From Paecilomyces variotii (Eukaryota): a stretch of 64,000 nucleotides of DNA. Location: NCBI GenBank assembly GCA_004022145.1, contig RCNU01000006.1, one strand, 5' to 3'. A program made the translations under genes and the position numbers. Each line of letters begins with the position of its first letter. The first letter of the stretch is position 1. Positions 13,348-53,497 of this stretch are shown here, piece by piece. The notes beneath the pieces were generated by a model. That model saw only the letters and a program-made list of their open reading frames with translations, had not been told where the DNA came from and searched no databases.

Positions 13348-14804
13348 AGCGAGGATCCGGATAATAGTACCTGAGGGACGCTCGCTATTGTTCACAAAGC
13401 CATTTGGAATGAAGAGAATAAGCAACACGAATGTTCTGAATGCCTAAGCCCGGCAACCTAGAACTCAGCCACCGCATCAAAACGCGATCGCGCTTTTAAA
13501 ACCCCAGATATATACAAAATGTACGGTCCCTGCGCGCCCCCTGGTTTTTTCACCGAGGCCCGGCAGTTTTCTGCCGCGGGGAGTTGGGATCCACCACCCG
13601 ATATTACGATGAAGGACGATGGATTCGCACGCACTGCCATTCAGCTCGGAGCAAAATAAATGAATAAATGAATATGTTGATAATCGCCGAGCGCTAGCGA
13701 GGCGACAAAACAAAACTGAAATAACATTCAGAGGGATAGCCCCGAAAATACAGCCTCTAGAGCAATAACAACAGTGCGAATTATTTTGTTAGAATATACT
13801 GTACTTCTCGAGCTGAGATGGGAATGTGTTATGCGCTCTTTTCCTCGTGTCTGCCTGGCAGAATAGCAATTTCGATAATAACATTGCAGAGTGATACAAC
13901 TGGTTACTCTCCGTTATGCTTAGGTACGATAACGGGACTATGTCGGGACCATATAAGGCGTAAATACTTCAGGGAAAGTTAAATCAACAGGCTCACTTAA
14001 TCAATTCAAATTGACTATAAAAGAAATGAAAAAGAATCTGGACTGCTAGACAGCGTTATTCGGGGGTCGGCGTAGTGCGCATAGGCTTTTAGATTATACA
14101 GATTAGAAACAAGAGCTCAGATCAATTGACTACTTAACATATTCGAGTATTGGTAGATTCTTTTCGAACGAGATTGTTTTGCTGAGTTGCGAGTTGCTAG
14201 CAATGTGAAGTACTAATTCTAGAACCCAACAGTTGAACGCAAAGGCCAAGAACAGAACCACTTGAGTCGACCAAGGGTAAGCACGATTGAGGAACCATTC
14301 CAGTTGATGTGGGATCAAATGTCAAGTTGAGGAAACCTATCCGATGAAATTAGCAATGGGTTCCTCGGAGCCACCCAGCAGAGAAAGGCAAAAGACAAAG
14401 TAAAGTGGAAGAAGAATATTATTATCTGCTGCTTCGCTAGCGAGGAAGATCACTCTGATTTCCAGAATGTTCGAATAGCGTTGTCTGCATCAGGGCCTGC
14501 AGCCAAATGTAGGTAACTTCGTCGAGCAGGAGCTTCGTGATAGCTGCGTAAGCATATCCGATCCCAACGACGGTGAGCATGAAGGAAACAAGCAACAGTC
14601 GGATTCACTCTTTCTCTACAGTACAACCCAGCCATTGCGATGGGAGCAAATCCCAGATTGCATGAAGTCCCCAACGCAGCTGTCAATGTTACCAGGACAT
14701 GTTGATGCTCCAGGGGCCTAGACTTTTGACGCCTCCATAACCACTTCAAAGGCAGGTCGAGCTGAAGTCGCTATATTAGGCCAAAAAAATGGCAAAAGAA
14801 AAAA

Positions 14805-14923
14805 ACATACGACAGCAGGGATTCGCTGGTGGTCACCCACCCAACTACTAACCTGCCGGCGTGTGGCTTAAGTACGGCTGAGCGGACGGGAAGCCCTGTT
14901 TTCCACACCCTATGGTCGTATGT
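14805..14923 (-). rRNA. 5S rRNA (dispersed copy, 119 nt)
   Basis: Reverse complement ACATACGACCATAGGGTGTGGAAAACAGGGCTTCCCGTCCGCTCAGCCGTACTTAAG...TTAGTAGTTGGGTGGGTGACCACCAGCGAATCCCTGCTGTCGTATGT, followed by an oligo-T terminator; CATATA element near -29. Confidence 0.98.
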
Positions 14924-16229: not shown

Positions 16230-16595
16230 GGAAGATTCCCCAGACCAAGTCATGATGAGCTCAGAGAACATCGACCCCTCCAGCGGGATTACGTCATGCG
16301 AGCACCCCGCCAGATCGCCGTGTCATCGATGCGATCTTCAATCTGCCATATTCATTCTAGAAGTCACTGGCGGTCTTCCTCTACCATATCTACCCAGTAA
16401 TTAATGGCCATTGCGGCCAGTGAAGGTGCCAGAACGCCTGGATGCTTCCTCAGCGGCACCGCTGGCACTTGCTAGCAGTTGCTGGGGCATCCCAGCCTTC
16501 GGTGGAGGGCTCGTGGCCCCCGTAGAATCGCATGGATTCCCATCGAAGCTCACCCGATGCTAGAAACTTCTGCCTCACCGCCCACCACTATATTA
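16230..16595 (+). promoter_or_regulatory. HSP70 promoter with heat-shock-element-like nGAAn pairs and a TATA-like box
   Basis: GGAAGATTCC 16230-16239, ATTCTAGAAG 16354-16363, AGAAACTTCT 16562-16571, TATATTA near 16589. Confidence 0.5.
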
Positions 16596-16804: not shown

Positions 16805-18575
16805 ATGGCTCCCGCTGTTGGTATTGACTTGGGTACCACGTACTCCTGCGTGGGTGTCTACCGTGATGACCGTATCGAGATCATCGCCAACGACCAGGGT
16901 AACCGCACGACCCCATCGTTCGTGGCCTTCACCGACACCGAGCGTCTGATCGGTGATGCCGCTAAGAACCAGGTCGCCATGAACCCATCCAACACCGTCT
17001 TCGACGCCAAGCGTCTGATTGGACGTAAGTTCAGCGACCCTGAGGTCCAGGCCGATATGAAGCACTTCCCCTTCAAGGTCGTCGACAAGAACGGCAAGCC
17101 CGTCGTCGAGGTCGAGTTCAAGGGCGAGACCAAGCAGTTCACCCCCGAGGAGATCTCCTCCATGGTCCTGACCAAGATGCGTGAGACCGCTGAGTCTTAC
17201 CTCGGTGGTACCGTCAACAACGCTGTCGTCACCGTCCCTGCCTACTTCAACGACTCCCAGCGTCAGGCCACCAAGGACGCCGGTCTCATTGCCGGTCTGA
17301 ACGTCCTCCGTATCATCAACGAGCCCACGGCCGCCGCCATTGCCTACGGTCTCGACAAGAAGGCCGAGGGCGAGCGTAACGTCCTGATCTTCGACCTGGG
17401 TGGTGGTACTTTCGATGTTTCCCTCCTGACCATCGAGGAGGGTATCTTCGAGGTCAAGTCCACCGCTGGTGACACTCACCTGGGTGGTGAGGACTTCGAC
17501 AACCGTCTGGTTAACCACTTCGTTAACGAATTCAAACGCAAGTTCAAAAAAGTGAGTGCTTTCGCTGACTCTAATTTGCCATTGTGTTATACACTCCTGG
17601 CGCCCCCCTCCCCACCAACCCCCCAACCTCCATCTTGTTCCTGGTTTCTGTCTCTATCCCCAGGGATGGTTCGAGAGTGTACACCCTGATACTCTGTCTG
17701 ACCATTCCCAATGGGTATACATTGTGCCCAGGTACCACTGTCCTTTGCTATGTGACCTGGTTGCCTGGTTACATTTTGCTACTGTGGTATCGCTCTGCTG
17801 TCATTGTGCTATATTGTGGAAGCTGCTATACTACTACAGCTATAGCATTGCTAGTGTCTGGTTCCCTTCTAGCTCAAAAAGACAGCCAGCAGTGCAAGCT
17901 GCTTCAGTTCTAAGGTGCCTCCTTTCAGTGCATCTTTTGGGGCCTATGTATCGCCAGGACAGGTTGTATGGGCATAGCCACACTAGAAATAGTGTGACTT
18001 ATGGCCATCTTCGTCGGGCAACAATCTCTTGATGTGGATTTTTCTTCACTGTTTTCCCCCTTTTTTCAATCCGGTGCCCTCCCAATGATCACTTCTCCTT
18101 GCCCATCATGTCCCCTTAAACCCATATCACGTGATATCATTTCCATTTCCCTATCAACGTTCACACAGGAGCAAAAGTCACCTTAGGATCCTTAGGAGGA
18201 CTCTGCTATCATTGTTCAAACAATGGCAAAAGTCACCTTGGGATCTTTAGGGGGACTCCGCTATCATTGTTCACACAACGGCAAAAGTCACCTTAGGATT
18301 TGTAGGAGGACTCCGTGCTAACTTGAATAAACAGGACTTGACTACCAATGCTCGTGCGCTCCGTCGTCTGCGCACTGCTTGCGAGCGTGCCAAGCGTACC
18401 CTCTCTTCCTCTGCTCAGACCTCCATCGAGATCGACTCTCTCTATGAGGGTATTGACTTCTACACCTCCATCACCCGTGCCCGTTTCGAGGAGCTCTGCC
18501 AGGACCTCTTCCGCTCCACCATGGACCCCGTCGAGCGTGTCCTCCGTGACGCCAAGGTTGACAAGTCCTCCGTCC

Positions 18576-18627
<52 letters not shown>

Positions 18628-19501
18628 GGTCAGCGACTTCTTCAACAAGGAGCCCAACAAGTCCATCAACCCCGATGAGGCTGTCGCCTACGGTGCTGCC
18701 GTCCAGGCCGCCATCCTGTCTGGTGACACTTCCTCCAAGTCCACCAACGAGATCCTGCTGCTCGATGTCGCTCCTCTGTCCGTCGGTATCGAGACCGCTG
18801 GTGGTGTCATGACTCCTCTGATCAAGCGCAACACCACTATCCCCACCAAGAAGTCCGAGACCTTCTCCACCTACTCCGACAACCAGCCCGGTGTCCTGAT
18901 CCAGGTGTACGAGGGTGAGCGTGCTCGCACCAAGGACAACAACCTGCTCGGTAAGTTCGAGCTGACCGGCATTCCTCCGGCTCCTCGTGGTGTTCCTCAG
19001 ATTGAGGTTACCTTCGATGTCGACGCCAACGGTATCATGAACGTCTCTGCCGTCGAGAAGGGCACTGGTAAGAGCAACAAGATCACCATCACCAACGACA
19101 AGGGTCGTCTCTCCAAGGAGGACATTGAGCGCATGCTCGCCGAGGCTGAGAAGTACAAGGCTGAGGACGAGGCCGAGGCTGGCCGTATCCAGGCCAAGAA
19201 CGGTCTGGAGTCCTACGCCTACTCCCTCAAGAACACCCTCAACGAGGGTCAGCTCAACATCTCCGCCGGCGACAAGGAGAAGCTCCAGGCCGAGATTGAG
19301 AAGACCATCTCTTGGCTCGACAGCAACCAGACTGCCACCAAGGAGGAGTACGAGTCCACCCAGAAGGAGCTCGAGAGCGTTGCCAACCCCATCATCTCCG
19401 GTGCCTACGCTGGTGCTGCTGGTGGTGCTGCTCCTGGCGCCGCTGGTGCTTCTTCCACTAAGACTGCCGACGAGGTCGAGCAGCCTGAGGAGCTTGACTA
19501 A
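16805..19501 (+). CDS. hsp70: Cytosolic Hsp70 (Ssa-type); single intron 17552-18334
   Basis: '[11 protein letters not shown]', '[12 protein letters not shown]', '[13 protein letters not shown]'; exons join in frame [16 protein letters not shown]-terminus PEELD; strong high-expression codon bias. Confidence 0.99.
17566..18025 (+). ncRNA. Candidate structured cis-regulatory RNA inside the HSP70 intron
   Basis: Series of adjacent stem-loops with many G-U pairs, a GAAA-capped stem, and long-range helices (see findings). Confidence 0.55.
18151..18315 (+). repeat. Three tandem 55-bp repeats immediately upstream of the HSP70 intron branch point
   Basis: GCAAAAGTCACCTT recurs at 18171, 18226 and 18281 (period 55); units 18151-18205, 18206-18260, 18261-18315. 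Confidence 0.97.
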
Positions 19502-48264: not shown

Positions 48265-48328
48265 AGACTAGAGAAGCCATAGACTAGAGAAGCCATAGAC
48301 TAGAGAAGCCATAGACTAGAGAAGCCAT
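48265..48328. repeat. Minisatellite: 4 perfect copies of AGACTAGAGAAGCCAT (16 bp)
   Basis: Units start at 48265, 48281, 48297 and 48313. Confidence 0.98.
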
Positions 48329-51300
48329 ACGCCCCTTACCCATCTCTCTGATTGCCATACACTCTACCCCCTAATCATCACCAAGGACTAATATAACTCG
48401 CACTCGAGACATCGTTGACCTCGAGCACACTTGCTCACTCCTACTTCCTGCTGCTGCTTTTGCTGCTGCCTTGACAGCTACCCGTCCCTGACATCCTAGC
48501 CACTACCCACTTACTACCCGATTATGACTCACGGGAAAGTTCCGTCGGACTAGACTCTCGGATCGTATACGGATAGTATAGTAATAATATACCGTTTACT
48601 TATCGTATCTCGCAGTCTGGAGGTCAATACAAAAGGCGTGTTCATTACCTACTACGATCTTATGCTGATAATATATCTGAATATCATGGCCAGTGTAGAG
48701 ATGCATCAATAATTCAGCATATAACTGCTAACTAGTCAACTATCTGGACTGACAGATGATTCAGCATGAGTAGTTACTCTTTTAATTTAGTGATTAATCA
48801 AATAACCCTGAAGTTTTGATTTCCCTTCACGCAATTTCAAGTTTCAGGGTCCCTTCCCGTGCGACTTAACTTTCCCTTTACCATACTTACCGCCGATACG
48901 AGCCATCTTTTGTGACATGTAGATTGAACAAGGATGGACCTGGAATGCAGAACATACCGGCGCGAGCAGTAGCTAATTAGTCTTAACTACGACTTTACTA
49001 GGAGAGATTCTAGAAAAAACGAAAAGCTCACCGCAAAGGTGCCGTGCTAGTCTGCTCTGGCGGCGACATGAGTCTATGCGGAGATTTTTTCGACGGCAAA
49101 TTAATGAAGCTTCATTTCGCCATCCTATGAAACAGCTATATTCTATCGGTAAGATTGACCACCCCGGAAATTTAGTCCAGGGAGAGTCTAAGGTATGTAT
49201 GACCTTTTTTTTGCCATTATTTTACCTACTTTTATTCTACACTAGAGGAAGGGCCAAGGCGAGACCCTGGAACGGGACGTTTCAGGATCCACGATGTTTG
49301 TTTTAGGGTCCGACTGTGGAACAGGTTGCCATCCTTCATATCCAGGAGCCACACCTTCTCCCCTCACGAGAGCGGGAGCAGAGCAAATCAGAGCTTCATC
49401 CGGGCCAGCCAGAGAGCCCGAGCGCAGATTGTGTGGTTTCTTGACGGTGGCTGCCACCATCCTTGTCGGGAAGGCGATGTGTTACGCCTCCAGCCTATCT
49501 ATCATCATCATCGTCGTCGAGATGTCTTGGGGAAGTGACTTGCCAACGCCGGATGACTTATCGCAAGCAGGTCAATGTCGAAAAGGGCATCCGCCGATGG
49601 ATCATATTGACATCAATGCGTCGCAAGCCGTATATCTAGGCTGGTGCCTTCCCGGAGATATATACCCTACTGTTTAGTTTACGTCGCCAAGCTGAGAGAT
49701 ATGAAATCTGATGATCAATACTCCTGCAGTCCAGATAAGAGACCGCCATCCGGAGGGCATTGGCTATGGAGAGGAAGAAATGAAGAGCTCGACGATACTC
49801 GTCACAGACCACGTTGGCAGGTCGATTTCCCAAAGCATTGGCTAGGTGTGTGCCTGCATGATGATCAGGCCATGCTGAGACTCCAGACCATTGAGAATGG
49901 CCTAAGATGCATTTCACTGGTTCAGTCCGGGTACGGAGCGAGGCTGCTGATCAGAGTCTGAAACAACAGAAACTGCATGTTTACCTCATCCTGTGTCGCC
50001 CGAAACGGCACAAGGCTGCTTCATTCTTCTGCCGTGGCACCATTCCAAGGACACTTTCGACACGGCCGCGTAAAGACCTGTCCATTACTCCAATCAATCG
50101 TGGAGGATATCCTACATGTCTCCAGCTCCAAGTCGACTCCCCGCAACATTGTAGGGTGAACGATGGCGAGTACAATGCCGAAGTATCTCACTGAGCTGTC
50201 ATCGCATGTTGTTCTGGTTGGCATGGATCACACCAAGTAGTAGCGCTTAGAAGAGCAAAGACAACAGTCCCAAGCTTACTCGGGAGTTGCCGCATGCCAT
50301 CCGGACGCCGTTGGACAAGCCTATAGCCCTCAGCACGGAGACAGCGCAGAATACTTGCATACCCGCGGACAACAGCAGGCAACGTCCCCAAGCACTGCTC
50401 CCCCTCCCCCTCCTGCGAGTGCTAGATGTAGAGACCCAGCTTATTTCTTCTTAGACAACCAGGGACACCGCGGTGCCACACTGCTTCCGCGAAGTTTCGA
50501 CTTCATATAAAGTAGATATGATGAGAGCTTACCACTTGGACGGACGATCGCGTCGATCAATCATTCATTGTAGACTTAAGAACTTCTTCCAATCATCTTT
50601 TCCATCAGCTTCCTCTACAAAGATCTTGAAATAAATAAATAAATAAAACACAAAATCGGAGAACTGGACTGGCCGTCGCGTCTACCATATGTCGCGTTGC
50701 GTAGATCCCGTGACTTTCCTTTTGTAGATGTACTTACTGTACGTATCGGCAGCAACAACATCAAGTACCGTAACTAGTCTGATCGACTTTTCGACGGCGA
50801 AGCTCCCTGGACGAACGAACCGGCCAGACTGCTGTCGCCTCTTGCTTGCCGGAAAGACGCACGACAGAACTAACTCAACTCATGGGCAGTGGGTGATTCC
50901 GTGAACAATCTGCTCTCGCTCCCCGGCTGCTGTGATAGGATAGAGACAGCTGCCCACCGCTTGTCCAGAGCTCCGTGTGGTTCTGTGCGTTATGCTTCAT
51001 TTCCTTTAGCTTCGAGCCATCGGCAGTCGAGGGTTCTGGCGGTGACCTCACCGCCTTGCCGCACCACGACGACCGTTTCTCCTTTCACTTCAAGACGTTC
51101 CCACTACTTCAGACCTCTGCAGCTGGACCCCGAGTCACCACCGCCCAATGATACTGGCATACATCACTGCATACAAGCAGGAAGAGATCCGTGGATGCCC
51201 TAACGATTACTGCGTTGAAAAAGGAATGAAAAAGAAAGGACGACGAGATGACTCGACAGCGGCAAATGCTGGAAATGCTGGCCCGGCCAAATAATAATGT

Positions 51301-53469: not shown

Positions 53470-53497
53470 CCCCCCCCCCCCCCCCCCCCCCCCCCCC
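53470..53497. repeat. Poly-C28 tract
   Basis: Uninterrupted run of 28 C upstream of the Myb gene. Confidence 0.95.

What the first reader, a model, noticed from the sequence alone, without database searches (positions are those of the whole stretch)
17552..18320. Long-range pairing joins the HSP70 5' splice-site region to the branch-point-proximal repeats: possible splicing thermoswitch
Seen in sequence: TTTGCCATTGT (17575-17585) is the perfect 11-nt complement of ACAATGGCAAA in repeat 2 (18220-18230) and pairs with one mismatch to ACACAACGGCAAA in repeat 3 (18273-18285). Adjacent TGACT (17566-17570) pairs with AGTCA (18231-18235 or 18286-18290). The donor's GAGT (17554-17557) can pair with the ACTC that follows each repeat hairpin; in repeat 3 that ACTC lies just before the GCTAAC branch point. 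AGTC can instead pair locally with GACT within the repeat, so two exclusive folds exist. Inference: the fold either juxtaposes or occludes the donor and branch point, and melting could couple HSP70 splicing to temperature or stress. The retained intron has an in-frame TGA at 17687-17689.
Basis: partly seen in the sequence, partly recalled or inferred. Interest (0 to 1): 0.75.

Follow-up and report, generated by a model that had tools for sequence, protein, structure and literature searches.

The report
Zipper stem in fungal HSP70 intron
The single, unusually long intron of a mould's main HSP70 chaperone gene is predicted to pair end to end, which would shrink it to the size of an ordinary fungal intron; this is a known way of helping splicing, and the models give no sign of a temperature switch.

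Summary
The complementarity is real and at the stated coordinates, and modestly above chance: 3 of 143 shuffles and 3 of 99 genomic tiles gave such a stem. The 783-nt intron (17552-18334) splits the cytosolic HSP70 of a Eurotiales-like mould, at a site where 8 of 13 orthologous loci have 53-62 nt.

In folding models the 5' site pairs with repeat 3 (P 0.81-1.0), not repeat 2. This meets the yeast zipper-stem criteria and leaves about 58-72 nt outside the stem. The stem does not melt from 25 to 48 C. The donor:ACTC clamp is minor (P 0.01-0.31), and donor accessibility hardly changes. Five long orthologous introns, none close, share no sequence and have no zipper.

The intron's inner domain folds far better on the sense strand (z -4.4 against -1.3), which hints at RNA-level selection. 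No read data or close orthologue was available, so function is inferred.

Verdict: probably a constitutive zipper stem in a repeat-expanded intron; the thermoswitch is not supported. The scan has already noted repeat-swollen, self-pairing HSP70 introns in another fungal genome.

The parts
16805..17551 (+). HSP70 exon 1 (249 codons, ends ...FKRKFKK)
   Evidence: PF00012 positions 1-242
17552..18334 (+). 783-nt phase-0 GT-AG intron at a position conserved in fungal cytosolic HSP70
   Evidence: KK|DL junction in homologues
17552..17557 (+). 5' splice site GTGAGT, predicted mostly in a weak local hairpin (about -5 kcal/mol) at all temperatures
17566..17587 (+). Site A, 5' strand of the zipper (TGACT plus TTTGCCATTGTGT)
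   Evidence: helices 17567-70:18286-89 P 0.64; 17575-80:18280-85 and 17582-87:18273-78 P 0.94
17634..17963 (+). Inner folded domain, much more stable on the sense strand
   Evidence: sense z -4.39 (0 of 60 shuffles), antisense z -1.31; best of 60 background tiles -2.93
17663..17791 (+). Three-hairpin module; the third hairpin has a large internal loop with UUUGCU on both sides
   Evidence: 17655-17800: sense z -3.19, antisense -1.11
17687..17689 (+). In-frame TGA if the intron is retained (294-aa product)
17774..17786 (+). Site B, second complement of the repeat core (12 of 13 to repeat 1); predicted to fold locally instead
   Evidence: at most 1% paired to repeat 1, forcing costs 3.9 kcal/mol
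18151..18203 (+). Repeat 1 (period 55)
18206..18258 (+). Repeat 2; its core folds locally (CATTGT:ACAATG); transient partner of site A
18261..18313 (+). Repeat 3; 18273-18290 is the 3' strand of the zipper
18316..18322 (+). Branch point TGCTAAC (predicted branch A 18321)
   Evidence: sequence; same motif in short orthologous introns
18332..18334 (+). 3' splice site CAG
18335..19501 (+). HSP70 exon 2 (388 codons plus stop, ends ...PEELD)

Best explanation
A constitutive zipper stem in a lineage-specifically expanded intron. Shown: the intron sits at an old position where most relatives have 53-62 nt; here it is 783 nt, with a single-copy inner region and three 55-nt tandem repeats. Predicted: during transcription site A first pairs with repeat 2, is released when repeat 2 folds on itself, then pairs with repeat 3. 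The roughly 700-nt interior is looped out as folded domains, leaving about 58-72 nt of intron, close to the ancestral size. The stem also keeps repeat 3 from pairing with the bases before the 3' AG. Inferred: this helps the spliceosome bridge donor and branch point in a highly expressed gene, so the fold is kept by selection, or only fold-back expansions were tolerated. It is not a thermometer. Any heat-induced retention would come from general splicing inhibition and give a stop at 17687.
For: Meets the zipper criteria of PMC12350175. Rare in two null sets, 3 of 143 and 3 of 99. Robust to flanks and temperature, P 0.81-1.0. The intron's MFE is lower than in all 143 shuffles of its 5' part. 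Two strong anti-core sites occur together in 1 of 20741 shuffles (threshold chosen after seeing the data). TTTGCYAYTGTG occurs 15 times in 30.1 Mb, twice in this intron. Sites A and B match the core inverted (scores 25-26) better than they match the repeat's own arm directly (10-17), so they are not simply extra copies of a half-palindrome. The inner domain folds on the sense strand only. With A forced unpaired, the AG-proximal region is less accessible, 0.62 to 0.35 and 0.67 to 0.40 with exon flanks.
Against: All structure is predicted: no probing, reads or covariation. The null rate of 1-3% is modest for a feature picked from a genome scan. No zipper in 5 of 5 long orthologous introns, which presumably splice without one. 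The predicted donor-to-branch path is short with or without A (median 14-21 against 21), so that measure gives no support. TGCTAAC is used by short orthologues without a zipper, so there is no weak branch point to rescue. The repeats fold as well on the antisense strand (z -3.69 against -2.78). In yeast some zipper stems lower splicing (RPL28).
Confidence: 0.5

Rival explanations
1. Neutral by-product: the intron grew by tandem and inverted duplication of a half-palindromic unit, so many pairings are possible and none matters.
For: This intron is swollen by unrelated repeats in other lineages (L012/L018, L020/L021; P0097 has a 57-aa repetitive insert). The unit is half-palindromic. 17787-17822 is a direct copy of the unit's arm and site B aligns over 35 nt with inverted repeat 1. 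The repeats fold on both strands. CpG is strongly depleted, o/e 0.30 against minima of 0.57 in 237 and 0.62 in 89 tiles. Earlier scan notes read another HSP70 intron this way.
Against: No significant large inverted or direct duplication inside the intron (51-178 of 300 shuffles score as high). The sense-only stability of 17634-17963 is not expected from decaying DNA palindromes. No copies elsewhere in the genome. CpA is not depleted, unlike the CpA-type RIP reported for Paecilomyces variotii.
Confidence: 0.27
2. Regulated switch: the zipper competes with other folds (donor:ACTC clamp, site B:repeat 1, repeat 3 paired to the AG region), and heat, or a protein such as Hsp70 itself binding the inner domain, shifts the balance; retention then meets the stop at 17687.
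For: Alternative folds lie 3-4 kcal/mol above the main one. The clamp weakens with heat in short-flank models. Precedents: RPL7B zipper against a protein-bound alternative; temperature-dependent splicing structures in yeast and tomato; transient unspliced hsp70 in Paracoccidioides at 36 C. Three UUUGC motifs face three GCAAA repeats and could form pseudoknots that the folding program cannot model.
Against: No melting or population shift from 25 to 48 C; donor accessibility is flat. No conservation in the orthologues seen. hsp70 intron retention under heat and cadmium in Blastocladiella was read as general splicing inhibition. No call shows Hsp70 binding this RNA.
Confidence: 0.15
3. The intron hosts a separate non-coding RNA (17634-17963 or 17663-17791) and the end-to-end pairing is incidental.
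For: Sense-specific, well-defined hairpins, one with a large internal loop like an H/ACA pocket.
Against: No Rfam match in the intron at E up to 10 or at gathering score in the window and five long orthologues. No tRNA. By eye, no ANANNA hinge, correctly placed ACA tail or C/D box pair (box definitions recalled). No similarity to the other long orthologous introns (6-99 of 100 shuffles score as high).
Confidence: 0.08

Closest known systems
Zipper stems of long Saccharomyces cerevisiae introns (RPS17B, RPL7A, RPL28; PMC12350175, passages read)
   Same: A stem joins a strand just after the donor to one just before the branch point. Size, confidence and spacing meet the paper's definition. Zipper sequences are poorly conserved between species there too.
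   Different: Here the host is an HSP70 gene of a filamentous ascomycete, the 3' strand is part of a 55-nt tandem repeat, and the stem is predicted only, not probed.
RPL7B intron 1 autoregulatory switch (10.1101/2025.03.14.643126, parts 1-3 of 4 read)
   Same: Zipper enhancer, UGCUAAC branch point, structured domain inside the intron, mutually exclusive folds.
   Different: There the alternative fold is conserved in 36 species, binds the protein, and UGCUAAC is weak for yeast. Here no conservation or ligand is shown, alternatives are minor, and short orthologues use the same branch point.
Temperature-sensitive pre-mRNA structures (yeast aminopeptidase 3' splice site, Meyer 2011; tomato HsfA2 intron 2, Broft 2022; seen only as cited in PMC9450479)
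   Same: Structure near splice signals of a gene expressed under heat.
   Different: The predicted helix here is too stable to shift from 25 to 48 C.
Stress-induced hsp70 intron retention in fungi (Blastocladiella PMC2773782; Paracoccidioides, da Silva 1999 as cited in PMC3237447; Trichophyton Hsp70-family genes PMC6830096)
   Same: Intron-containing fungal Hsp70-family genes whose retained intron gives an unproductive message.
   Different: No RNA structure was implicated in the passages read; retention was not measured here.
Fungal introner-like elements and symmetrical stwintrons with terminal inverted repeats (PMC8469720, passages)
   Same: Intron ends that are complementary.
   Different: Those are multi-copy, at new positions, with 45-55 nt inverted ends. 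This one is single-copy, at an old position, with about 17 bp of pairing.

Membership tests
Zipper stem (PMC12350175) | At least 6 bp with at most 5 bulged nt | tested here: met
   12 bp with one A-C mismatch
Zipper stem (PMC12350175) | Starts 10 nt or more from the donor, ends 20 nt or more from the branch point, linker 42-85 nt | tested here: met
   23 + 35 = 58 nt
Zipper stem (PMC12350175) | Helix confidence of 70% or more from DMS-guided folding | tested here: inconclusive
   0.94 from unguided pair probabilities; no probing data
Zipper stem as splicing enhancer (RPS17B type) | Disruption lowers and compensation restores splicing | not testable with these tools
   needs a minigene
Splicing RNA thermometer | Fold population shifts across growth and heat-shock temperatures and changes splice-site access | tested here: not met
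   A:repeat 3 0.98-0.91 and clamp cost constant from 25 to 48 C; donor accessibility changes by 0.02-0.06. Model only.
Splicing RNA thermometer | Temperature-dependent splicing that depends on the structure | not tested
   No read data obtained
RPL7B-type autoregulatory switch | Conserved alternative structure exclusive with the zipper | tested here: inconclusive
   Alternatives exist at +3 to +4 kcal/mol; no conservation in distant orthologues; no close orthologue
RPL7B-type autoregulatory switch | Gene product binds the intron | not testable with these tools
   needs crosslinking
Intron-hosted snoRNA or other Rfam RNA | Rfam match or canonical boxes | tested here: not met
   boxes checked by eye
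Introner-like element or MITE | Multiple copies in the genome | tested here: not met
   only self-hits; core pattern 30 matches against 30 in the control. The tool warns that no match does not prove rarity.
Stwintron or recursive intron | Internal consensus donor, branch point and acceptor set | tested here: inconclusive
   One CAG|GTACCA at 17729-37 after CTGAC; weak donor, buried in stems; no reads

The most novel reading that the evidence does not exclude
The intron is a structural feedback switch on HSP70. A sense-strand folded domain, whose three UUUGC motifs can dock on the three GCAAA repeats, toggles a zipper that licenses splicing, under control of free Hsp70 or a heat-released factor rather than of melting. 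The repeated, independent swelling of this one intron by fold-back repeats in several fungal lineages would then be convergent building of such switches.
Probability: 0.1. Interest if true: 0.72.

Novelty: new member of a known kind. Interest (0 to 1): 0.3.

Why it matters
If the best reading holds, it extends zipper stems from budding-yeast introns to a filamentous-fungal chaperone gene. It also gives a clean test of whether short-intron fungi tolerate intron growth only when the new DNA folds away. If the regulated reading held, it would give a cis mechanism for the known stress-dependent retention of fungal hsp70 introns and a splicing-level feedback on Hsp70. I found no description of a structure in a fungal HSP70 intron in the listings of seven searches; the library lacks most subscription journals, and no supplements were searched.

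Tried and rejected
Rfam and tRNA scans: nothing in the intron. Copies of the intron or repeat elsewhere in the genome: none. Idea that the 55-nt unit is a duplicated ancestral mini-intron (branch-point tail as a fourth copy): P 0.12-0.61, not supported. Nested second helix B:repeat 1: good on sequence (-20.4 kcal/mol duplex) but at most 1% in the ensemble. Shortest-path distance from donor to branch point: uninformative. Large internal duplications: not significant. Classical CpA-type RIP: not matched. Close orthologues: none found in genome contigs (the six hits were not examined further and all carry bacterial titles), viral contigs, read-through proteins or cluster members. In one search, 8 of 21 pattern hits were not HSP70 and were dropped; L017 was missed by the extraction script and its length (about 62 nt) comes from tblastn coordinates. 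L012/L018 branch points were mis-picked and redone. The translation printed is out of frame by one base and was not used. Public runs holding the locus were listed (20 of 21 rows, many from food-fermentation metatranscriptomes) but no reads were laid, so they count as no evidence. The sigma-70 scan is irrelevant to a fungus. GAANNTTC is not enriched in the window (18 against 23.5 expected).

Full report
Gene and intron. The region lies in a cytosolic HSP70 gene: exon 1 at 16805-17551, exon 2 at 18335-19501, 637 codons in all. PF00012 matches both exons on either side of model position 242. The last 139 residues are 82-84% identical to two Talaromyces proteins, the best identities among the 120 long proteins listed, so the host is a Eurotiales-like mould; an earlier scan note calls the genome Paecilomyces-like, which I did not test further. 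The intron is 17552-18334, GTGAGT to TGCTAAC (18316-22) to CAG. Retention gives TGA at 17687-89 after 294 codons. Splicing at these sites is inferred from the KK|DL junction of homologues, not from reads.

Observation. The 11-nt complement is unlikely when position is fixed (0.22% of 5000 shuffles) and common when it is not (18.6% of 1000); by energy alone 345 of 3236 local windows pair with repeat 3 as well. Keeping the repeats and replacing the 5' part, a zipper of 6 bp or more at confidence 0.7 or more formed in 3 of 143 shuffles and 3 of 99 genomic tiles. The feature is therefore above chance at the 1-3% level, which is modest for something picked from a scan. A second complement of the repeat core, site B (17774-86), strengthens the case: two such sites arose in 1 of 20741 shuffles (threshold set afterwards), and the shared 12-mer occurs 15 times in the genome, twice here.

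Which fold. With exon flanks, site A pairs with repeat 3 and repeat 2 folds on itself. Forcing the perfect A:repeat 2 helix costs 8.7-10.4 kcal/mol. Snapshots of the growing transcript show A on repeat 2 at 18240, released at 18260 and on repeat 3 from 18295. The A:repeat 3 helix is 12 bp at 0.94 with a 58-nt linker, inside the definition of a zipper stem in PMC12350175 (passages). It leaves 72 nt of intron outside the core helix and 58-60 nt with the TGACT:AGTCA extension. Site B prefers repeat 1 and A prefers repeats 2-3 in duplex energy, a nested pattern, but B is predicted to fold locally.

Temperature. A:repeat 3 is 0.98, 0.97 and 0.91 at 25, 37 and 48 C, and the donor:ACTC clamp costs 3.0-3.3 kcal/mol at each. 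Over three flank lengths the helix stays at 0.81-1.0; the clamp is 0.28-0.31 at 25 C and 0.06-0.12 at 48 C with short flanks, and 0.01 with 60-nt flanks; donor accessibility changes by 0.02-0.06. The donor sits mostly in a weak local hairpin at every temperature. Nearest-neighbour models of 800-nt RNA are rough and ignore pseudoknots and proteins, but they give no support for a thermoswitch.

Orthologues. A junction pattern found 21 metagenome stretches, 13 of them HSP70 with an intron at this site. Eight have 53-62 nt (two pairs are identical); five have 153, 266, 284, 328 and 545 nt, from three lineages. Four of the long ones carry short repeats unrelated to ours; those four fold at z -1.4 to -4.2 against 40 shuffles each. 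None of the five has a zipper or sequence similarity to this intron. In-frame inserts at this site in 16 mis-called proteins are 18-34 residues in 15 and 57 in one (biased to short introns). Read-through tails show no site A. None of these is a close relative, so covariation is untested. Two earlier scan notes describe a 491-nt repeat-swollen HSP70 intron in another genome and read it as a by-product; they are unchecked AI notes.

The interior. 17634-17963 folds at z -4.39 on the sense strand and -1.31 on the antisense, beyond all 60 background tiles; 17660-17795 gives -4.52 and -0.95, while the repeats fold on both strands (an independent run on 17655-17800 gave -3.19 and -1.11). Seven of 40 pairs in the five main helices of 17663-17791 are G-U (counted). 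This asymmetry is the best evidence that RNA structure, not DNA symmetry, has been kept. No Rfam family matches. CpG is depleted more than in any of 237 window tiles or 89 tiles from other loci (o/e 0.30); the background mixes coding and non-coding DNA. It is not the CpA pattern of RIP reported in P. variotii (passages of PMC6300479) and remains unexplained. The interior and repeats have no other copy in the genome.

Mechanism. Most likely (0.5) the stem is a constitutive zipper that loops out the expansion and restores short-intron geometry; the steps from fold to splicing benefit are inferred. A neutral repeat by-product is next (0.27), then a regulated switch (0.15, more likely protein-gated than melting) and a hosted RNA (0.08).

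Known systems. It works like yeast zipper stems and meets their geometric definition in silico; the probing and rescue criteria are untested. It resembles the RPL7B switch (parts 1-3 of 4 read) but lacks shown conservation or ligand, and TGCTAAC is used by short orthologues here. Stress-linked retention of fungal hsp70 introns is in print (passages of PMC2773782, PMC3237447 and PMC6830096; da Silva 1999 seen only as a citation), as are splicing thermosensors (citations in PMC9450479). Passages of a Histoplasma isoform preprint (10.64898/2026.08.26.747414) mention HSP70 only for its 3' trailer. Seven searches listed no paper on a structure in a fungal HSP70 intron; supplements were not searched.

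Verdict. Observation confirmed, interpretation partly supported: a new member of a known kind, interest 0.3. The bold reading, an Hsp70 feedback switch built repeatedly from fold-back repeats, has probability 0.1 and would deserve about 0.7.

Noticed in passing
window 17552-18334: CpG o/e 0.30 and TpG/CpA o/e 1.34, the most extreme of all tiles compared; L012 and L018 are also CpG-poor. Unexplained.
   Followed up: partly
window 17698-17737: CTGAC, then the first AG at 17730-31 directly followed by GTACCA: a weak look-alike of a recursive splice site, buried in stems. A second CAG|GT lies at 17960-64.
   Followed up: partly
window 17575, 17744, 17775: Three TTTGCY motifs face three GCAAA repeat cores; two line the internal loop of hairpin 17731-17791 and could form pseudoknots.
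   Followed up: partly
window 18287-18334: The last 48 nt read GT...TGCTAAC...AG after CAAAA, like a mini-intron, and the repeats carry CTATC where the branch point has CTAAC; similarity not significant.
   Followed up: yes
window 16231-16238, 16355-16362, 16563-16570: Heat-shock-element-like words (GAAnnTTC twice, TTCTAGAA once) upstream of the gene; motif recalled, not enriched in the window.
   Followed up: partly
window 14804-14923 (-): 5S rRNA gene, 85.5 bits.
   Followed up: no
window 48265-48329; 53470-53497: Perfect 16-nt tandem repeat, 4.1 copies; run of 28 C.
   Followed up: no
L012 and L018, HSP70 intron: Related introns of 153 and 266 nt that differ by copies of a roughly 15-nt half-palindromic unit and fold into long hairpins.
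   Followed up: partly
L020 and L021, HSP70 intron: Related U-rich introns of 284 and 328 nt with a variable-copy repeat; in the bare-intron MFE the donor pairs with the branch point.
   Followed up: partly
L066, L067: Small contigs inside two bacterial genome records encode intronless eukaryote-type cytosolic HSP70 ending EEVD; probably contamination.
   Followed up: no
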